From: Victivallales bacterium
GTDB lineage: Bacteria > Verrucomicrobiota > Lentisphaeria > Oligosphaerales > Oligosphaeraceae
Assembly (NCBI GenBank): GCA_017417585.1
Contig: JAFPYX010000036.1
Span: 10,948 to 74,947 of the forward strand
Direction of reading: 5' to 3'
Length of the DNA stretch: 64,000 nt
The notes beneath the pieces were generated by a model that ran no database searches, had not been told where the DNA came from, and was given only the letters and a program-made list of their open reading frames with translations. Below are positions 11,672-21,623 of this stretch, piece by piece. Numbering within the stretch: the first letter of the stretch is position 1; each line of letters starts with the position of its first letter. Position numbers and translations under genes: made by a program.

Positions 11672-12718
11672 TTACGGTTCCGTCACATGGATCATCACCT
11701 TCTTGTGGTTACGCTCGCCCATCGCCTTCACCGCCTCGTGGATGTCCTTCAATGCAAAACGATGGCTGACAATCTTCGCGGGATCCACCAGATTCCGTTC
11801 CATCAGGCGGATCGCCTGCTGCATCGCCAATGGCGTGGTGCCAAACGAGGCGTCCATGCGCCCCTCCAGGAAGTGCGTCTGCCCGCCGTCCAGCTCAAAT
11901 TTCTCGTGCGTGGTAATGCCGAAGACATTCCAGCGCGTGCCGCGGCGGCGCAGATCCACCATCGTCTTCACGGCGGCGATGGGACCAGCCGCCTCAATGA
12001 CGAGATCGGGTCCGGCGGGCATCTCGCGATAGACCTGCTCCTTCACATCCGGTGCCAGTGCGTCAATCACCTTGGTCGCCCCGCCGATCTTCAAGGCGTT
12101 TTGGCGTGCGTACTCTGAGGCGTCGATCGCCACGAGATGACCTGCGCCCGCCGCCTTGGCGACCATCATGCACAATAGCCCGATTCCGCCGGTGCCGATC
12201 ACCACCACGTCCTCGCCAACTCGGATTTCGCTCTTCTGGACCACGCCCTTCCAGGCGCCGGAGAGCGGCTCGGTGAGTGCCGCCGCCTCAAAGGAGAGGT
12301 TCGCGGGCTTGTGGAAAAGGCACTCCTGACCAGTGACCATATACTCCGCGAAAGCCCCCGGCCGCACGTCGTCCGGCCCGTCACCGCCAGTAGTGTAGGC
12401 GTATTTGCAATAGTGCGTGAGTCCCGCACGGCAGTATTCGCACTGTCCGCAGTAGCCGGAGGGCTGGCAGATTACCGCATCGCCCACCTGAAAATCGCCT
12501 ACCACGCCAGGCCCCAACTTGTCAATCACCCCGGAGGGTTCGTGGCCAGGGATCAACGGGAAGGTCACATTGCGGCGAAGACCGACAATCGCCTTATAGT
12601 CCGTCTGACAGAAACCGCAATCGACGATGCGCACGCGCACCTGCCCTGGTCCCGGCTCCGGCGTCGGAACCTCCTCCAGGCGGAAGTCATTGAAATCGTG
12701 GAGAACTGCTGCAAGCAT
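11672..12718 (-). CDS. Zinc-dependent alcohol/polyol dehydrogenase (MDR family, sorbitol/threonine dehydrogenase-like)
   Basis: ORF 11672..12757. The likely start is the ATG at 12718 (MLAAVLHDF...). Motifs: GHEPSG, the structural-zinc Cys cluster CGQCEYCRAG, and VIGTGGIGLL. Confidence 0.85.
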   Translation of the reverse strand: MLAAVLHDFNDFRLEEVPTPEPGPGQVRVRIVDCGFCQTDYKAIVGLRRNVTFPLIPGHEPSGVIDKLGPGVVGDFQVGDAVICQPSGYCGQCEYCRAGLTHYCKYAYTTGGDGPDDVRPGAFAEYMVTGQECLFHKPANLSFEAAALTEPLSGAWKGVVQKSEIRVGEDVVVIGTGGIGLLCMMVAKAAGAGHLVAIDASEYARQNALKIGGATKVIDALAPDVKEQVYREMPAGPDLVIEAAGPIAAVKTMVDLRRRGTRWNVFGITTHEKFELDGGQTHFLEGRMDASFGTTPLAMQQAIRLMERNLVDPAKIVSHRFALKDIHEAVKAMGERNHKKVMIHVTEP

Positions 12719-13155
12719 AGTAAGGAATGAAAACTGAGATTTTTTAACCCGCCGCAAGGATAACAGCCACGGCGATATTCCTTACTATAACTTGCCCCAG
12801 ACAACCCGGCGGAATCAGAGAGCAATTTGGACGATTCTTCAGAAAACGAATATATAGGTACAGACTGCGCTTTTTTTCGTGTCTTTCGTGTGTTTCGTTG
12901 AAAAATCTCCATTGCCCATGAATGTTGCTGGAAAATCATGACGGCAAGTTAACGGTATCATTCCCAAAGTATTCACCTAACTCATGGATATAGTTCCTTT
13001 TTTTCGTGCAACGGCTTGTAAATATCGAAATTGATGGCATATTAAGAATGTCTTCAAAACTGACGGCAGCAATGCCTATGCGACATGCGTACATGGTGCA
13101 TGACGCAAACATCACTGGTCAGTTGAGACAAGTGACGCTTGGTAGCGTCGGGCAC

Positions 13156-13193
13156 GCAGGCATCCGGTCCCACCCGGATGCCTGCCTTTTTTT
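13156..13193 (+). terminator. Strong rho-independent terminator on the plus strand inside the AT-rich island
   Basis: 12-bp stem gcaggcatccgg / ccggatgcctgc with a 6-nt loop, followed by cttttttt. The T-tract overlaps the stop codon of the minus-strand mini-ORF. Confidence 0.6.
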
Positions 13194-13254
13194 ATCGGCG
13201 GATTTCAATCCGGATGATGATGACAATCGCAATGACTGCAATCCAAATGCTCAT
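13192..13254 (-). CDS. 20-codon hydrophobic mini-ORF (MSIWIAVIAIVIIIRIEIRR). Candidate type I toxin-like or small membrane peptide.
   Basis: ATG at 13254 with GGAGG 9 nt upstream (gagaggaggtgaaagccgATG). One hydrophobic helix plus a charged tail. Below the ORF-track threshold. Coding status is unproven. Confidence 0.4.
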   Translation of the reverse strand: MSIWIAVIAIVIIIRIEIRR

Positions 13255-13334
13255 CGGCTTTCACCTCCTCTCCCGCCCTTCGCGGGACCTGGGCTACAAC
13301 CAATGACGCGGTCGGCATTTGCTGCCGTCAGCAC

Positions 13335-13366
13335 TTATAATATACTGCCTGACACGACTATTTCAA
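13335..13366 (-). promoter_or_regulatory. Sigma70-like promoter candidate for the mini-ORF transcript
   Basis: The minus strand reads TTGAAA, then 16-18 nt, then TATATT/TATTAT (fwd tttcaa 13361-13366 and ttataatata 13335-13344). The predicted start falls at the 5' arm of the inverted repeat. Confidence 0.35.
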
Positions 13367-13640
13367 ATCAAAATTATCTAAATTATATTTGTATATAAAA
13401 TCAAATACTTTATTGATATTTTATGAGATTTTTTGGCAGATTTATATAAGAATATATGCAAAAGAGGCACGATTCGGCAGCGGCCGGTGTGCCAATCGCG
13501 TCAGCCAACAGTCCCTGTGTCCTCACGTCAAACTCCCCCAAAAGGATTGCCGCCGCGCTCGCTTCCGTGAAAACATGCAAGTTTCTCGACCGAACGCAAC
13601 GGCAGTCCAAGATTCAGGTTGCTACAGCAACGATTTGGAA

Positions 13641-13844
13641 TCAGGGCAGATTCACCCAGCGGCGGTAGCTCTTGCAGCTGCCGCCATGACCCACACCCAT
13701 GTTGCTGCCTTTTCCGGCATTGCAGGGTTTGTACTCGTTCAGGGGAACTTCCACGATGCGGCCGCCCTGGATGATCTTCCGCTCGCCTGTCCAGAACTGG
13801 CAGGTTGCACAACTTTGACGATTGCTTGGGATGTTTGAAGCCAT
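13641..13844 (-). CDS. Hypothetical 67-aa four-cysteine protein
   Basis: Internal ATG of ORF 13641..13988, preceded by AAGGAG (aaccaaggagcaaccATG). Product: MASNIPSNRQSCATCQFWTGERKIIQGGRIVEVPLNEYKPCNAGKGSNMGVGHGGSCKSYRRWVNLP (CxxC...C...C). A candidate hairpin plus T-run lies about 150 nt downstream (13464-13493). Confidence 0.5.
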   Translation of the reverse strand: MASNIPSNRQSCATCQFWTGERKIIQGGRIVEVPLNEYKPCNAGKGSNMGVGHGGSCKSYRRWVNLP

Positions 13845-14320
13845 GGTTGCTCCTTGGTTATGGTGTAGTTTCGATTGCGTCCCACTTCGGGACAGCGGCT
13901 TTTGGCCTGCCATTTCTACAATAGCAAATTGCATACCACCGCAATCCCTGGAGGGAAACCGAGTGAAAATCCAATGGCCACTGTTCAATACTTTACCCCT
14001 GCGTCACTTTTTTTACCACTCCAGGTACGGTTTCCCACAAACAATAGGCTTTCAATAATCTGTGTTCCCCAAGATGTGCACCTAGTCTTAAGGCTGTGGG
14101 GAACACAGGTTTAAGCTTTAGGCTATAGCCATATTCCCCGTGATGGCACTTAACTACGCTGTTTTTTCAAGCTGCAGGGGGACGGGGGCGGCAGCGCCCG
14201 TAGAATTTGTAGAAGTGCAATCAGGTACCTTCTTGTGTAACAAAGCGTACCACAATCCGTAAAACCAGGCATGGCGGGACGGCAGATGGAATTTTAAGTA
14301 ATTAATTTATAATAAGCAAA

Positions 14321-17300
14321 TTATTGCAATAGAAACAACCGTGTGGAACGAGGTGCGAACTCTACCGTGAAAGCACCTTCCGCATCCGTCGTGAAGACCT
14401 CGCCGGAGAGTGCGTCTCGCACTTGGCCGGGGGACTTCAGGAAGATGGTCTTGGGACCGCCTTCGCGGACGCAGATGCCCAGGAGCCCACGTGTCGCCCA
14501 GACTTGGTCGTCGCTTTCGATATAGCGATGGACGCCCGCCTTCTTCATCGCGGAGAGCAGAAGTTCACGCGGCGGCATCGTCACTGCGCAGTAGAGCGCG
14601 GTCCAGGCAGGATGCTCCTGGACAGCGATGGCGCCGCCGGAGTTGGGGAAATGCGCCAACACCAGCGTCTTAGCATCGGGTTCCACGAATGGGCACGGCC
14701 GATATGGCGCATGATTCGGGCGATCCGCCGCAAAGACCGCCCCCTGCATTTCGAGCGGCAGCCATCTTCCATCCGGGAAGTCCACTGTCGCCTGGGAGGG
14801 AACCTCGTCGACGACCACCCCGAGCGGGAATCCCGTGAACTCCCGCATCGCCTCGACGGGCGTCTGACCTTCACGCCACGGGAAGACGCCGGGGGCATGC
14901 AGGAAGAGGATGACCCGGCCATCGGCCTCAAGTTTTCGCAACGCCTGAAGCTGTGCTTCGTCTGGCGCTATCGAGGTGCCCAGGACCACCAGCCGGATGC
15001 GTTCCGGAAGGCGCTCCAGGTCGGAGGCGAGATAATACTCCACCGTGGTTCCCAAGCGCTCCAGCAATGTGACATTTCGGGTGACGCCTTCAAAGGCCAG
15101 CCGCGAGCCCACGCGGAAATACGGCATGCTCCCCTCGTCCACGACGTATGCGATTTGCGCCTCGGGCGTGCGGTCGCACTTTCGCACCGCCTCGTCCATC
15201 GCCCGTGCCAATTTTCCGACATGCTTCATCAACACAGGGTTGGAGTAGTTCACATAGCCGACATCGAACCACCATTGCGCCAATCCGGAGCAGAGAGTGT
15301 GGATGGCGACCTTGTCTTGCTGGAGCAGGTCGCCCTCGAGGTCGGCAGGCTTTCCGCAGTATCCGACTGGTCCGTCGGTCTCGCTGGTGCGCACATCCAT
15401 CTCCACAATCCAGAACTTGTTGTGGAGGGCAAGGCTGGCGGCGGGTCCCATGTTCATCGGCACGCCGTCGCCGCCGACCTCTCGATAGGCGTAGCTCAAC
15501 GGGCTGGCGAAGAAGTCGATTTCCGGATTCTCCAGCAGCCTGCCGACCGCCGTGTGGCCGGAGTTGAGCAGGCGGTGGCCGAAGGCAAGTTCAAAGAGGT
15601 ATCCGTAGAAGGGGCCGACCAGCATCCGCCCGCCTGTCGCCTCCTTGACCACATGCGCGAAGTAAGCAATCGTCTCGGCAGTGCGTTCGGCATTCCATCG
15701 ATAGTAGTCCACGCTTTTAACCTCTGCGCCAACCGAGAGGTCTCGCAGGTCTGGAGAGTTTGGCAGCACCGCCGCCCGCTCGGCACGCGTGGGCATTTCG
15801 GCGGTGTCAAAAGTCGCCTCCGGTTCCTTCCAAGCAGACTGGAGTGCCGCTTCGTCAGCGTAGTTCTGCCGCAGCCACTGTCGGAAGTGCGTCTGGGCTG
15901 CGGGCGAGTAGTCGCCCCAGAGGTTTTCGTTGTCACCCCATGCCATCCACTCCTCGGTGGTTCCGGAGGCCAGGAGGATGCCGACAATGCGATCCGCATA
16001 CGCGGAATTGCGGATATGCTCCAGCATTTTGCGAAGCCCGTTCGCGGTGTATTCCCGCCAAGCAGGGCTGGACCAGCTGGGAACGGGGCGACCGCCGACA
16101 TAGCGCATTGGGTGCCGAGAGCCATCCTCTTCCTCAATCCATACGCAATCAGCGGGATGCGCCTCGCACCACCAGATTGGTGCGCCCAGGAAGACGCGTG
16201 GAATCAGCCATGCGTCCGGGGCCTCGGAGAGGATTGTCTGGGCATAGTCGTCCAACAGGCTGAAATCATATTCTCCGGGCGCGGGTTCGCTCAGCGTTCC
16301 GCTATGATAGGCATGAAGATTGGGCGTGGCAGTGAAGGCGAAGATCTTGACACCCTCCTGGGCGAAGGCACGCCAGCCCAAGGGACCCATTGCATAGGTT
16401 GCTCGCATCACGCCAGGGAGGATCTCGCCGTTGCAGCGGATGGTCGGAGCGCCTTTCCAGTTCACCACTTCGCACTGCGAAAACTCCTGCGGCACACGCC
16501 CTTTCACCATGACTTCCATGCTGCCCTGCCGCATCACCGCCTCGCCGCAATGAAGGCTCACAACATATTCCCCGGAAAGAAGATACTTGCTTACAGGCAA
16601 TTCCTGTTCTGGAATCAACAATCGCATTCCCGTGCGTTCCACGTTCGCCAACGTTAGACGTACTGGCGCCTGTCGGCCCGGCTCGCCCTGGAACGTCAGC
16701 TCCAGCCACACCCGGTCGTCAATCGGCATCCGATGGCGGAACTCCACACGCATCGGCCCGAAACTCAACCGCTCACCTGCGACAATCTCCGAAGGCAGCG
16801 CAAAGGCGTTCTCGCATTTTCCCTGCGGCACCAGGTCGTCCACCAGCTCAATGCTGCGGATCTGCAGATGCACCGGCTGGCCCGCTTTGACATTCAGCAA
16901 ATACAGCGCGAGCGAATCCAGCGGATATTGTCCAGAACCACCCCTCCCTTCCGGCGCGTAATTGAAAAACACTTCATGCCAGGCGCCATCCGAAGGAACC
17001 ACCGGCCGTTCGGACGAATCCCAACCTTTCCATACGCGAAAGCCCGGCCCTCCTTCCACACCGCTCCAAGCCGCCGCAAACAACTTCAAAGGTGCGTCAC
17101 CCAAGTTGCGCACCGTAAACACCACACGCTCCGCCGGAGGCATCGCAGGACGGCCATACACCAGTGCGCATTCCGTCTCAGGACCACCCGCGCGAAGCTG
17201 GAACTGGAAATCCAGTGCACCGGCCTTTGGGTCATATGAGAACTGACCGTATTCCAAAATCTTAGAACGATTCTGCACATCAAAGCAGTCCGACCAATGG

Positions 17301-17410
17301 TTTGCCGTGGCACCATCGTACCAGACCTGCCGCTCCTCTGCACAGACAGTCGCGAAAAATGCGGCGAAGAAAAAGACAAAAAAAACGTTCCTTTTAAGAA
17401 ATTTATCCAT
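14321..17410 (-). CDS. Large secreted glycoside hydrolase-like protein with a GH42-like beta-galactosidase-type central domain (family assignment tentative)
   Basis: Signal peptide MDKFLKRNVFFVFFFAAFFATVCA. The central region (PAPGEYDFSLLDDYAQ..., HFRQWLRQNYADEAALQSAW) resembles the GH42 TIM-barrel N-domain. Coding status is confident; the family is not. Confidence 0.55.
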   Translation of the reverse strand: MDKFLKRNVFFVFFFAAFFATVCAEERQVWYDGATANHWSDCFDVQNRSKILEYGQFSYDPKAGALDFQFQLRAGGPETECALVYGRPAMPPAERVVFTVRNLGDAPLKLFAAAWSGVEGGPGFRVWKGWDSSERPVVPSDGAWHEVFFNYAPEGRGGSGQYPLDSLALYLLNVKAGQPVHLQIRSIELVDDLVPQGKCENAFALPSEIVAGERLSFGPMRVEFRHRMPIDDRVWLELTFQGEPGRQAPVRLTLANVERTGMRLLIPEQELPVSKYLLSGEYVVSLHCGEAVMRQGSMEVMVKGRVPQEFSQCEVVNWKGAPTIRCNGEILPGVMRATYAMGPLGWRAFAQEGVKIFAFTATPNLHAYHSGTLSEPAPGEYDFSLLDDYAQTILSEAPDAWLIPRVFLGAPIWWCEAHPADCVWIEEEDGSRHPMRYVGGRPVPSWSSPAWREYTANGLRKMLEHIRNSAYADRIVGILLASGTTEEWMAWGDNENLWGDYSPAAQTHFRQWLRQNYADEAALQSAWKEPEATFDTAEMPTRAERAAVLPNSPDLRDLSVGAEVKSVDYYRWNAERTAETIAYFAHVVKEATGGRMLVGPFYGYLFELAFGHRLLNSGHTAVGRLLENPEIDFFASPLSYAYREVGGDGVPMNMGPAASLALHNKFWIVEMDVRTSETDGPVGYCGKPADLEGDLLQQDKVAIHTLCSGLAQWWFDVGYVNYSNPVLMKHVGKLARAMDEAVRKCDRTPEAQIAYVVDEGSMPYFRVGSRLAFEGVTRNVTLLERLGTTVEYYLASDLERLPERIRLVVLGTSIAPDEAQLQALRKLEADGRVILFLHAPGVFPWREGQTPVEAMREFTGFPLGVVVDEVPSQATVDFPDGRWLPLEMQGAVFAADRPNHAPYRPCPFVEPDAKTLVLAHFPNSGGAIAVQEHPAWTALYCAVTMPPRELLLSAMKKAGVHRYIESDDQVWATRGLLGICVREGGPKTIFLKSPGQVRDALSGEVFTTDAEGAFTVEFAPRSTRLFLLQ

Positions 17411-20125: not shown

Positions 20126-21181
20126 TTACAATTCATCGACATTGACAAGTCGGTAGTACCGTTTCCCGACCTGGAACTGTTCACCGTAGTCCAGAGTATG
20201 AAGTCCCTGGCGGCTCTCGATGCGTTCACGCAGTTTCGCCGAGTCCGGCTGCGCATAGACCATGTCGATGCTGCACTGGTCGATGGCCAGCGGGTCGAGC
20301 GAGGCAACGATTCCGATGTCATGCATGTCGGGTTCGGCGGGATTGCCATTGCAGTCGCAGTCCACGCTCAGCCGATTCATCACGTTCACGAAGGCGATAT
20401 TCCGGTAATGGTCCTTGGAGTCGCAGACCGCCCAGGCTGCCTCGACCATCGACTCCAGAAAGTCGATTTGGTCGCCACACCACGGGTTCGTCGCGCTTTT
20501 CCCGCCGGAGTGGATCAATGCCTTGCCCGAGACCTTGGAATCCACATTTCCAGAACCAAAGCCGATGGAGAGATTCTTGACGGCGCCGCCGAAGCCCGCC
20601 ATGGCGTGCCCCTTGAAGTGGGAAAGGACGAGGTAGGAGTCGTAGTTGGCGAAGTGGCTTCCCACGACATCTTCCTTAAGGTGTTTCCCCTTCGGGATGG
20701 GCAGGCTCATGGTGCCCTGTTCATCCAGCAGATCGAATGGTGCGATTTCAAGGAAGCCATGGTCCTTGACAACCTGGTGGTGCATTGCCGAGGAAGCGCG
20801 GCTGCCGCCATACGCGGTGTTGCATTCCACAATGGTCCCGCCGAGATGCTGCACCAAGTCCTTGATGAGCTCGGGGCGCAGGTAGTTTGATGCCGGGGGT
20901 TCGCCCGTGGAAATCTTGACGCCCACCTTGCCGACGGGGCTCCACCCCATCGCTTGATAGACTTTCAGCAAACCTGCCGGAGAGATGTCCCGCGTGAAAT
21001 AGACCACCGGTGCCTCCGCATCATCGGTCTGATGAGGCAGTTTCTCCAGCGGTGCCGGTGCGACTTGCGCTTTTCCAAGCGACTCCGCGTATGCTTCAGA
21101 AGATGACGGCTCATCCTGCCGGCAGCAGGATGCCAGCGTCAGCACCACGGCAAATAGCATTGTCCACAAGAACTTCTTCAT
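20126..21181 (-). CDS. DUF362 domain lipoprotein
   Basis: ORF 20126..21454. The likely start is the ATG at 21181 after GGAGGG, giving MKKFLWTMLFAVVLTLASC (lipobox). Contains the DUF362-like core LSHFKGHAMAGFGGAVKNLSIGFGS. Confidence 0.7.
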   Translation of the reverse strand: MKKFLWTMLFAVVLTLASCCRQDEPSSSEAYAESLGKAQVAPAPLEKLPHQTDDAEAPVVYFTRDISPAGLLKVYQAMGWSPVGKVGVKISTGEPPASNYLRPELIKDLVQHLGGTIVECNTAYGGSRASSAMHHQVVKDHGFLEIAPFDLLDEQGTMSLPIPKGKHLKEDVVGSHFANYDSYLVLSHFKGHAMAGFGGAVKNLSIGFGSGNVDSKVSGKALIHSGGKSATNPWCGDQIDFLESMVEAAWAVCDSKDHYRNIAFVNVMNRLSVDCDCNGNPAEPDMHDIGIVASLDPLAIDQCSIDMVYAQPDSAKLRERIESRQGLHTLDYGEQFQVGKRYYRLVNVDEL

Positions 21182-21511
21182 GCTTCCCTCCACAACAAGA
21201 CGATGACTTCGGTCAAGCCGTTGCAAAAAAACATGCCTAAATATACCTCCGCAATCGCGATTTGGAAGAAGCGACTCAATACATTCGCCGGAACAGAGGC
21301 AAAACGGAAGCGTTTCCACGCAAGCAGAAGAGACGGGCGGTGCGCCACGCATCTTCATAGTCCCATTTTTCACTGGGGAAACAGCCCCGTGCTCACGATG
21401 ACTGAAGCATTCCAGACCGTGAACCATACCTTCAGGGCGCTGTTTCCACCGCAACGCATTTTAGCGGCGGGAACGTCTCCCAACCCGAATTCACGTCGGC
21501 GGCCAATCGGC

Positions 21512-21623
21512 AAAAAAAAGAGGATGGCGCCGGATCGAATCTGCTCTGCAGAGTTCGCTAAGATAGAGCCTTGAGGCTCCGAATGCAAGTATTGTCCAGA
21601 GTGCCAGGTCACGGCGGCCATCC
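21512..21623 (-). terminator. Structured element closed by a 10-bp stem and followed by U8. Either the gpsA terminator or a 3'-UTR-derived RNA.
   Basis: The minus strand reads GGATGGCCGCC (21623-21613), then about 80 nt with internal hairpins (gagcc-tcaa-ggctc), then GGCGCCATCC (21531-22) and TCTTTTTTTT. Confidence 0.4.

What the first reader, a model, noticed from the sequence alone, without database searches (positions are those of the whole stretch)
13056..13366. Type I toxin-antitoxin-like module: 20-aa hydrophobic peptide gene, 5'/3' long-distance pairing and a convergent terminated antisense transcript
Seen in the sequence:
- The minus strand has TTGAAA-N16-18-TATATT/TATTAT (13366-13335). 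The likely transcript start lies at the 5' arm ctgacggcagcaaatgcc (13331-13314).
- A small hairpin (cccgc-gaagg-gcggg) abuts GGAGG, followed 9 nt later by ATG.
- The ORF encodes MSIWIAVIAIVIIIRIEIRR, one hydrophobic helix plus a charged tail.
- About 115 nt after the stop lies the complementary 3' arm ggcattgctgccgtcag, followed by tttt (13076-13056).
- On the plus strand, a canonical terminator (12-bp stem plus T7, 13156-13193) ends a transcript that would be fully antisense to the 3' UTR and to the stop codon of the mini-ORF. A possible TTGTAA-N16-CATATT promoter lies near 13015-13042.

Established knowledge:
- Type I toxins (Ibs, TisB, Fst, BsrG, TxpA, AapA1, Hok) are hydrophobic peptides of about 19-50 aa.
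- Several have antitoxin RNAs convergently overlapping the mRNA 3' end (txpA/RatA, bsrG/SR4).
- Several keep the full-length mRNA inert through 5'-3' long-distance interactions (hok, aapA1).

Inference: the combination here fits that logic. Such loci are rarely annotated and are poorly known outside Proteobacteria and Firmicutes.
Basis: partly seen in the sequence, partly recalled or inferred. Interest (0 to 1): 0.6.

Follow-up and report, generated by a model that had tools for sequence, protein, structure and literature searches.

The report
New toxin-antitoxin-like RNA module, Victivallales

Summary

**A conserved family, not chance**
- The module has a second copy in the same genome, 82% identical.
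- There are 12-13 copies across the four genomes of this Victivallales genus (rumen MAGs), and 14 more on rumen-type metagenome contigs.
- Copies always sit between different neighbouring genes.

**What is conserved across copies**
- Two convergent sigma-70-type promoters: the hexamers are kept while the spacers vary.
- An AAGGAGG Shine-Dalgarno (SD) sequence and ATG.
- An in-frame Ile-rich ORF of 14-20 aa.
- The 5'/3' long-range helix, with compensatory changes and G·U pairs that are valid only on the mRNA strand.
- A ~145-nt antisense RNA with its own terminator, whose wobble pairs are valid only on the sRNA strand.

**New here**
- An invariant 5'-UTR element (CAUUGG) can pair either with the start codon or with a conserved 3'-UTR element that the antisense RNA would cover.
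- Orphan antisense genes and broken ORFs exist, but no intact ORF was found without the antisense gene.

**Limits**
- There is no homology to any Rfam or Pfam type I family.
- RBS (ribosome-binding site) occlusion is not stronger than in shuffled controls.
- The scan holds no look-alike DNA from other genomes, only unrelated modules of the same kind.

**Verdict:** a new type I TA-like family.

The parts
13367..13446 (-). AT-rich region upstream of the mRNA promoter; left-hand limit of homology between copies
   Evidence: The alignment of upstream flanks shows similarity between copies starting about 105-110 nt upstream of the 5' arm and none beyond.
13339..13366 (-). Peptide-mRNA promoter, TTGAAA-N16-TATATT
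   Evidence: Found by the promoter scan. Both hexamers are conserved in 10 copies while the spacer sequence varies.
13056..13333 (-). Predicted peptide mRNA (~278 nt); the 3' end is not mapped
   Evidence: Folds at -139.7 kcal/mol, z = -9.4. Aligned across 8 copies (A2) and 11 copies (A4).
13314..13331 (-). 5' arm of the long-range helix
   Evidence: 97% of cells paired with the 3' arm, 2 pairs changed on both sides, and G·U pairs valid only on this strand. Duplex energy is -27 to -34 kcal/mol in 11/11 copies.
13297..13309 (-). Anti-start element GCGUCAUUGGUUG (CAUUGG invariant)
   Evidence: Pairs with the start-codon region (90% of cells paired) or with the 3'-UTR element (95%). Both duplexes are possible in 11/11 copies.
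13272..13286 (-). Small hairpin abutting the SD (cccgc-gaagg-gcggg)
   Evidence: 4 of its 6 pairs show changes on both sides, e.g. C-G to A-U in the C13 copy.
13264..13269 (-). Shine-Dalgarno AGGAGG, 9 nt before the ATG
   Evidence: AGGAGG and the SD-ATG spacing are kept in every copy that has the ORF.
13192..13254 (-). 20-aa ORF MSIWIAVIAIVIIIRIEIRR (candidate toxin)
   Evidence: An in-frame ORF of 14-20 aa is present in all full copies. Variable sites by codon position are 7/2/6. The 16-aa variants differ only by synonymous changes.
13110..13122 (-). 3'-UTR element CUGACCAGUGAUG, alternative partner of the anti-start element
   Evidence: RNAalifold consensus helix, columns 27-38 with 232-243, with compensatory changes.
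13060..13076 (-). 3' arm of the long-range helix, followed by UUUU at 13059-13056
13016..13043 (+). Antisense-RNA promoter: TTGTAA, N16, CATATT preceded by TGg (extended -10-like)
   Evidence: The hexamers and the TG are conserved in most of the 12 copies, the spacers vary, and the distance to CTGACGG is nearly constant, shorter only in L020.
13049..13193 (+). Predicted ~145-nt antisense RNA (candidate antitoxin), fully complementary to the mRNA 3' UTR and the last bases of the stop codon
   Evidence: Fold z = -5.2. Alignment A3 and covariance model R1 find 12 full-length matches in the genus at E from 1e-26 to 1e-39. No Rfam family matches.
13156..13193 (+). Intrinsic terminator of the antisense RNA (12-bp stem plus T7)
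   Evidence: U·G and G·U wobbles in the stem are valid on the plus strand and become C·A mismatches on the minus strand.

Best explanation
This is one copy of a self-contained, multi-copy type I toxin-antitoxin-like module of about 450 bp (window ~12988-13446), carried by rumen Victivallales (phylum Lentisphaerota).

**Shown by sequence comparison**
- Two convergent genes are conserved as a unit.
- The minus strand carries a ~280-nt mRNA with a strong SD and a 14-20-aa Ile/Trp-rich peptide with a basic tail.
- The plus strand carries a ~145-nt terminated RNA that is perfectly antisense to the whole mRNA 3' UTR and ends opposite the stop codon.
- The mRNA is closed by a conserved 5'/3' helix.
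- It also carries an invariant 5'-UTR element (CAUUGG) with two conserved, mutually exclusive partners: the start-codon region and a 3'-UTR element.

**Inferred mechanism**
- The peptide is membrane-active and harmful when made.
- The mRNA is normally held closed at its start codon by the anti-start helix.
- The 3'-UTR element can capture the anti-start element and free the start codon.
- By covering the 3' UTR, the antisense RNA prevents that capture. It probably also creates a long duplex that is cleaved, as in the Bacillus 3'-overlapping systems.
For: - **Family and unit.** There is a second copy in the same genome at 82% identity. There are 12-13 copies in the four genomes of the genus and 14 more on metagenome contigs. 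Neighbours differ from copy to copy: Zn-ADH/GH42, ThiF/GH20, HemN, CsgG, SIS, DUF4143 ATPase.
- **Promoters.** On both strands the hexamers are kept while the spacers vary.
- **Coding signal.**
  - SD and ATG are invariant.
  - ORF lengths of 20, 16, 15 and 14 aa all differ by multiples of three.
  - Variable sites by codon position are 7/2/6.
  - Replacements are V/I/A/S/M/F.
  - The two 16-aa ORF sequences differ only by two synonymous changes, although their UTRs differ.
- **RNA structure.**
  - The 5'/3' helix is 97% paired, with compensatory changes and minus-strand-only G·U pairs.
  - Helix 27-38:232-243 is 95% paired and the anti-start helix 90% paired.
  - All exceed slid and shuffled controls.
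  - All three duplexes are feasible in 11/11 copies.
  - Terminator wobbles are valid only on the plus strand.
- **Effect of masking.** Masking the 3' UTR raises the cost of opening the RBS in 11/11 copies, by 0.5-5.3 kcal/mol.
- **Asymmetry expected of a toxin-antitoxin pair.**
  - Orphan antisense genes exist (L058, L061a, L063a).
  - One ORF is split by an insertion (L023).
  - One copy has lost its stop codon and 5' UTR (L021/L017).
  - No intact ORF was found lacking the antisense gene.
- **Fit to the definition.** The sizes fit the T1TAdb definition: mRNA 150-400 nt, asRNA 60-200 nt, peptide about 20-60 aa (PMC8594479).
Against:
- Toxicity is untested.
- Peptides of 14-16 aa are shorter than any type I toxin I know of and cannot span a membrane as a single helix. 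Even the 20-aa form has only about 13 consecutive hydrophobic residues.
- The two most conserved peptide features (Trp4 and Ile-Arg-Ile) coincide with a predicted RNA helix, UGGAU/AUCCG. Their conservation may therefore be at the RNA level.
- The energy needed to open the RBS is not higher than with dinucleotide-shuffled flanks (z from -0.8 to +1.3).
- There is no homology to any known type I toxin or antitoxin family.
- The mRNA 3' end is not defined by a convincing terminator.
Confidence: 0.6

Rival explanations
1. The module is a cis-antisense-regulated gene for a small membrane or regulatory peptide that is not a toxin. The antisense RNA merely tunes its expression.
For: The peptides are very short (14-20 aa) and variable in length, which is unlike classical pore-forming type I toxins. 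Nothing in the sequence proves harm to the cell.
Against: - The module is multi-copy and patchily distributed in unrelated intergenic sites.
- The layers of translational control are elaborate.
- Antisense genes survive without ORFs, but the reverse was not seen.

These features are typical of addiction or toxin modules, not of housekeeping small proteins.
Confidence: 0.2
2. The module is a pair of non-coding RNAs, or one small RNA gene plus its structured antisense partner. The mini-ORF is not translated, and its apparent conservation reflects RNA structure.
For: - The plus-strand RNA is the most conserved part and survives alone in several loci.
- Trp4 and Ile-Arg-Ile overlap a predicted helix, and the CGG Arg codon is invariant at the nucleotide level.
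Against: - A perfect AAGGAGG sits at a fixed 8-9 nt from an invariant ATG.
- Indels occur only in multiples of three.
- The second codon position is nearly invariant (7/2/6).
- Only synonymous differences separate two diverged 16-aa copies.
- A conserved helix aimed at the start codon makes sense only if translation occurs.
Confidence: 0.1
3. The unit is a miniature transposable element, and the 18-nt inverted repeats are transposase-binding terminal repeats, not RNA-pairing arms.
For: It is multi-copy, found at unrelated sites, and carries an inverted repeat CTGACGGCAG...CTGCCGTCAG.
Against: - The repeats are internal. Homology between copies extends about 110 nt beyond one arm and about 55 nt beyond the other, and ends without terminal repeats or target duplications.
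- The distal halves of the arms co-vary through G·U pairs that work only in RNA of one strand.
- Two copies lack the 5' arm yet keep the antisense gene.
Confidence: 0.04
4. The module is a leader-peptide attenuator, with an Ile-rich leader sensing Ile-tRNA and controlling a downstream gene on the minus strand.
For: 10 of the 20 codons are Ile. In this window a co-directional Zn-dehydrogenase gene starts about 300 nt downstream.
Against: - On the minus strand the hairpin after the ORF is not followed by a U-run.
- Downstream genes differ between copies and are convergent in some of them (AsnB, CsgG).
- No branched-chain amino-acid genes are nearby.
- The short variants have few Ile codons.
Confidence: 0.03

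Closest known systems
bsrG/SR4, bsrE/SR5, yonT/SR6 and txpA/RatA of Bacillus subtilis (type I TA with 3'-overlapping antisense RNA)
   Same: - The genes are convergent and the antisense RNA overlaps the 3' end of the toxin mRNA, not the RBS.
- The predicted long perfect duplex is a likely RNase III substrate.
- For SR4, antitoxin binding at the 3' end is reported to change the fold around the RBS, which is the effect proposed here. This point is from my own knowledge of the literature.
   Different: - There is no sequence or Rfam similarity.
- The host is a diderm PVC-group bacterium, not a Firmicute.
- Here the antisense RNA lies wholly inside the mRNA and touches only the stop codon. T1TAdb states that most 3'-side families overlap the ORF (PMC8594479).
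- The peptide is 14-20 aa, against 38-59 aa (my recollection).
hok/sok (plasmid R1) and aapA1/IsoA1 (Helicobacter pylori)
   Same: A long-distance pairing of the very 5' end with the 3' end closes the full-length mRNA. Alternative, mutually exclusive helices decide whether the start region is accessible.
   Different: - In those systems the antisense RNA targets the 5' or RBS region and acts on a 3'-processed mRNA. Here it covers the 3' UTR.
- There is no mok-like leader ORF.
- There is no Hok or AapA homology.
Ibs/Sib of Enterobacteria
   Same: [quoted passage not shown]
   Different: Sib covers the whole ibs ORF, whereas here only the stop codon is overlapped. There is no sequence similarity. 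The peptides here carry a basic, alternating Ile/Arg/Lys tail.

Membership tests
Type I toxin-antitoxin systems (generic definition, T1TAdb, PMC8594479) | Short mRNA (150-400 nt) encoding a small protein (about 20-60 aa) | tested here: met
   The predicted mRNA is 255-307 nt across copies. The ORF is 20 aa in the window, and 14-16 aa in some relatives, which is below the usual range.
Type I toxin-antitoxin systems (generic definition, T1TAdb, PMC8594479) | Antisense RNA of 60-200 nt that base-pairs with the toxin mRNA | tested here: met
   A ~145-nt plus-strand gene with a conserved promoter and terminator is fully complementary to the mRNA 3' UTR. This was met at the level of sequence only; transcription was not observed.
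Type I toxin-antitoxin systems (generic definition, T1TAdb, PMC8594479) | [quoted passage not shown] | not testable with these tools
   Needs inducible expression in a laboratory strain.
Type I toxin-antitoxin systems (generic definition, T1TAdb, PMC8594479) | The antisense RNA prevents synthesis of the toxin | tested here: inconclusive
   Masking the 3' UTR raises the RBS opening cost in 11/11 copies. However, the opening cost is not above shuffled controls, and there is no experiment.
Type I toxin-antitoxin systems (generic definition, T1TAdb, PMC8594479) | Both strands are transcribed | not testable with these tools
hok/sok | Hok-family toxin, mok leader ORF, and Sok RNA complementary to the 5' leader | tested here: not met
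   There is no Pfam hit for the peptides at E up to 10 and no Rfam hit. The antisense RNA lies 3' of the ORF. Only the 5'/3' fold-back logic is shared.
Known antitoxin RNA families in Rfam (RatA, SR4-type, Sib, Sok, IstR, RdlD, etc.) | Match to the family covariance model at its gathering score | tested here: not met
   cmscan of 12000-14500 on both strands at E up to 10 gave only a terminator-like hit to Atu_C4 (22 bits against a gathering score of 80) and a spurious lncRNA hit.
Miniature inverted-repeat transposable element | Inverted repeats at the element's termini, with homology ending there, flanked by target-site duplications | tested here: not met
   Homology extends about 110 and about 55 nt beyond the two arms, and there are no terminal repeats or duplications at the outer limits.

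The most novel reading that the evidence does not exclude
The antitoxin may work through a three-way RNA switch not described for any type I system. The mRNA's own 3' UTR would be an activator that pulls an invariant anti-start element (CAUUGG) off the start codon. The antisense RNA would neutralise the toxin by sequestering this activator rather than by touching the RBS. The effector peptides, down to 14-16 residues with an alternating Ile/Arg/Lys tail, would be the shortest type I toxins known, and would act more like cationic amphipathic antimicrobial peptides than like transmembrane helices.
Probability: 0.25. Interest if true: 0.7.

Novelty: new variant of a known kind. Interest (0 to 1): 0.52.

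Why it matters
A 2025 paper states that type I toxin-antitoxin systems have so far been found only in Proteobacteria, Firmicutes and Tenericutes, and adds a cyanobacterial candidate (PMC12390103, abstract seen). A well-conserved family in Lentisphaerota would extend the class to the PVC group.

Because it has about 25 natural sequence variants, the family is a compact natural experiment in RNA switching. It combines a 5'/3' closing helix, an element with two alternative partners, and an antisense RNA nested in the 3' UTR.

The very short Ile/Trp/Arg peptides would be among the smallest gene-encoded membrane-active peptides. The practical value is modest: better annotation of rumen MAGs, and possible parts for RNA-based regulation.

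Tried and rejected
- **Rfam** search of the region at E up to 10: no antitoxin or sRNA family.
- **Pfam** on four peptide variants at E up to 10: nothing.
- **Pfam** on the longer six-frame ORFs that overlap the module (13006-13398+, 13389-13838+, 12565-12939-): nothing; these ORFs were treated as spurious.
- **Wider distribution.** blastn and covariance model R1 found no convincing copy in 43 other genomes of the same family. The only hit outside the genus was one marginal R1 match (G031, E 0.004, 26 bits), which was not examined. blastn found none in 24 genomes of other families of the order, apart from a short spurious match. R1 also found none in the four genomes of genus g8, the nearest relatives of the metagenome subfamily.
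- **CRISPR-like mini-array** next to an orphan antisense gene in L058, L061 and L063 (two 28-nt repeats and a 33-nt spacer). This reading was rejected: no cas genes are nearby, and the repeats are part of a ~240-bp element with 33-nt inverted ends.
- **Thermodynamic claim** that the RBS is unusually occluded: rejected as stand-alone evidence, because dinucleotide-shuffled flanks give similar opening costs.
- **Alternative frame.** GTG-initiated MKADEHLDCSHCDCHHHPD is not conserved in the paralog.
- **Leader-peptide attenuator and MITE readings:** rejected.
- **Searches not run.** The large protein databases were not searched with the peptide. Gene callers do not predict ORFs of 20 aa, so a negative result would have meant nothing.

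Full report
**1.

Reading both strands and running the consensus scan confirmed each item.

Minus strand:
- TTGAAA-N16-TATATT lies at 13366-13339.
- The 5' arm lies at 13331-13314.
- The hairpin cccgc/gaagg/gcggg lies at 13286-13272.
- GGAGG lies at 13268-13264, 9 nt before the ATG at 13254.
- The ORF 13254-13192 encodes MSIWIAVIAIVIIIRIEIRR.
- The 3' arm lies at 13076-13060, 115 nt after the stop, followed by UUUU.

Plus strand:
- A 12-bp terminator stem at 13156-13185 with T7 at 13187-13193 is the only terminator-like site in the 2 kb scanned.
- TTGTAA-N16-CATATT lies at 13016-13043.

Folding:
- The minus-strand RNA 13056-13333 folds at -139.7 kcal/mol. This is z = -9.4 against 200 dinucleotide shuffles, with the two arms paired.
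- The plus-strand RNA 13049-13193 has z = -5.2.

Setting:
- The module sits in a 1.56-kb AT-rich non-coding stretch. It lies between a Zn-dependent dehydrogenase gene (11672-12757, minus) and a GH42-like 1029-aa gene (14321-17410, minus).

**2. It is a conserved, multi-copy module**

- The window is contig C3 of a 3.26-Mb MAG with 95% completeness and 8.5% contamination.
- The same genome has a second copy on contig C13, 82% identical over ~360 bp. Its ORF is MSIWIAIISIVIVIRIKFRR.
- blastn against 60 relatives, and a covariance model (R1) built on the plus-strand RNA, gave the same picture. R1 found 12 full-length matches at E from 1e-26 to 1e-39 in all four genomes of the genus. The 43 other genomes of the family gave nothing, except one marginal, unexamined R1 hit (G031, E 0.004). 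A 13th copy is cut by a contig end.
- A pattern scan of GTDB species genomes named the hosts: Victivallales MAGs from sheep rumen, buffalo rumen and buffalo abomasum.
- A scan of metagenome contigs added 14 copies on 12 contigs. These include a new subfamily with the 16-aa ORF MFTWIKIVIRITIIRK, and two contigs with tandem copies.
- A flanking protein of that subfamily is 67-70% identical to proteins of another genus of the same family. The reference genomes of that genus nevertheless lack the module. The distribution is therefore patchy.
- Neighbouring genes differ from copy to copy: ThiF/GH20-GNAT, a PurF-like ORF and an AsnB-like ORF (both named by eye, not scanned), HemN, CsgG, SIS, a pseudopilin-like gene and a DUF4143 ATPase. 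Their orientations also differ.
- Homology between copies runs from ~110 nt upstream of the 5' arm to just past the -35 box of the plus-strand promoter. It ends without terminal repeats or target duplications.
- The unit in the window therefore spans about 12988-13446. It is autonomous, and it is not a MITE bounded by the two arms.

**3. Two genes, each with strand-specific support**

- *Promoters.*
  - On the minus strand, (C)TTGAAA and TATATT/TAAATT are conserved at a fixed distance from GCTGACGG.
  - On the plus strand, CTTGCAA/TTGTAA/TTGACA and TGgCATATT are conserved.
  - In both cases the spacer sequences vary freely. That is the pattern expected of working promoters.
- *Plus-strand RNA.* Ten aligned copies share a 5' hairpin with a GNRA-type loop, two internal hairpins and the terminator. 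The terminator stem contains U·G and G·U wobbles in four copies. These are valid on the plus strand and become C·A mismatches on the minus strand.
- *Minus-strand RNA.*
  - The 5'/3' helix has 17 pairs and 97% of cells paired. Two pairs changed on both sides among the eight genus copies.
  - Its distal half is rewritten in the divergent copies: AAUGCC/GGCAUU, GGUGCC/GGCAUUU, GGCAGUC/GGUUGUC, GACACC/GGUGUUC.
  - Many of its G·U pairs would be A·C on the other strand.
  - Slid and shuffled controls fall far below the observed values.

**4. The ORF looks translated**

- All full copies keep AAGGAGG, an ATG 8-9 nt downstream, and an open frame ending at the TAA that overlaps the antisense terminator's T-run.
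- ORF lengths are 20, 16, 15 and 14 aa, so every length change is a multiple of three.
- Among eight distinct 20-aa sequences, the variable sites fall 7/2/6 on codon positions 1/2/3. Replacements stay within V/I/A/S/M/F.
- The two 16-aa ORF sequences differ only by two synonymous Lys changes, although their UTRs have diverged.
- The shared pattern is M-[SFR]-x-W-I, then a hydrophobic stretch of variable length, then I-R-I-x-x-[RHG]-[RK].
- Caveats:
  - The Trp and Ile-Arg-Ile codons coincide with a predicted helix, UGGAU/AUCCG, and the Arg codon CGG is invariant. Part of this conservation may therefore be at the RNA level.
  - 14-16 residues cannot form a membrane-spanning helix.
  - The alternating Ile/basic tails resemble cationic amphipathic peptides. 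This is my inference and was not tested.

**5. A possible switch**

- RNAalifold on the mRNA alignment pairs the invariant 5'-UTR element GCGUCAUUGGUYG with a conserved 3'-UTR element CUGRCCRRUGAYG. This helix is 95% paired, with compensatory U-A to C-G changes.
- Single-sequence folds instead pair the same element with RGCCRAUGA, which contains the start codon. This helix is 90% paired, and the hairpin next to the SD has four pairs changed on both sides.
- Both duplexes are possible in 11/11 copies. The energies are -9 to -14 kcal/mol with the start region and -15 to -22 kcal/mol with the 3' UTR.
- The antisense RNA is the exact complement of the 3' UTR, so it would remove the second partner.
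- In line with this, masking the 3' UTR raises the cost of opening SD..+6 in all 11 copies, by 0.5-5.3 kcal/mol.
- A control weakens the purely energetic argument. With dinucleotide-shuffled flanks the opening cost is similar (z from -0.8 to +1.3).
- The switch is therefore supported by conservation and covariation, not by energy, and it remains a model.

**6. Decay pattern**

- One copy (G003 contig C5) has its ORF split by a ~170-bp insertion with inverted ends. Its antisense terminator has also lost its T-run.
- Two orthologous copies (G003 C100, G002 C321) have lost the stop codon, the 5' arm and the anti-start element, but keep an intact antisense gene.
- Three metagenome loci keep only the antisense gene, next to a MITE-like element.
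- No copy with an intact ORF lacks the antisense gene. This asymmetry is what one expects if the peptide is harmful, but it comes from few loci.

**7. Comparison with known systems**

- The sizes and layout meet the T1TAdb definition (PMC8594479).
- There is no Rfam or Pfam similarity to any known family.
- The 3'-side convergent antisense RNA recalls the Bacillus families bsrG/SR4 and txpA/RatA.
- The 5'/3' closing helix and the alternative folds recall hok and aapA1.
- The tiny multi-copy peptide recalls Ibs.
- I am not aware that this combination has been described: an antisense RNA nested entirely in the 3' UTR and touching only the stop codon, an element with two partners, and peptides of 14-20 aa.
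- A 2025 paper states that type I systems are known only from Proteobacteria, Firmicutes and Tenericutes (PMC12390103). My literature search found no paper linking type I systems with Lentisphaerae or other PVC phyla.
- Earlier notes of this scan hold no look-alike DNA from other genomes. They do record several unrelated type I-like candidate families in other phyla. The kind is therefore turning out to be common, which tempers the surprise.

**8. Verdict**

- It is best filed as a new family, and an architectural variant, of type I toxin-antitoxin-like modules in Victivallales.
- Transcription and toxicity are still to be shown.
- Confidence in the toxin-antitoxin mechanism is about 0.6.
- The main alternative is a non-toxic small peptide under antisense control (0.2).

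Noticed in passing
L023 / L044 (G003 contig C5, about 21130-21610): The peptide ORF of this copy is interrupted after codon 3 by a ~170-bp insertion with inverted ends (GAGGCAATTGCAAAA ... TTTTGCAATTGCCTC). The same end sequence occurs beside another copy (L016 flank), so this may be a small mobile element of the genus.
   Followed up: partly
L063 3795-4038 (also L058, L061): A ~240-bp element with 33-nt inverted ends (TTTAAATCGCTCTTTTCCCCACGAGGGTAGGTA) sits beside an orphan antisense-RNA gene. It contains two perfect 28-nt direct repeats separated by 33 nt. It looks like a mini-CRISPR or CreA-like array, but no cas genes are nearby.
   Followed up: partly
window 14131-14246: This stretch is repeated elsewhere in the genome: 91% identical on C63, and in tandem arrays with a 68-nt period on C12 and C52 (core GGCGGCAGC.CCCGTAG.ATTTGTAG). 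No Rfam match; function unknown.
   Followed up: partly
window 12856-12966: A T-rich motif (tttttcgtgtctttcgtgtgtttcgttgaaaaatc region) recurs as ~23-26-nt matches on at least 15 other contigs of the genome, often within 2 kb of a contig end, and as a 110-nt match on C95. It may be a dispersed repeat or a promoter-like element.
   Followed up: no
window 14058-14110: A 12-bp inverted repeat CTGTGTTCCCCA...TGGGGAACACAG. Its TTCCCCAAGATG core resembles the ends of the MITE-like element seen in L063.
   Followed up: no
L061 809-1425 and L063 3652-4203: Two module copies lie in tandem about 435-500 bp apart, one complete (16-aa ORF) and one reduced to the antisense gene. Tandem arrays are a hallmark of several type I families.
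   Followed up: partly
window 13214-13223 and 13163-13182 (minus-strand mRNA): The ORF segment CAUCCGGAU is identical to the 5' half of the terminator stem and complementary to its 3' half. It could therefore compete for that stem in the mRNA. It is invariant in all copies, including third codon positions.
   Followed up: no
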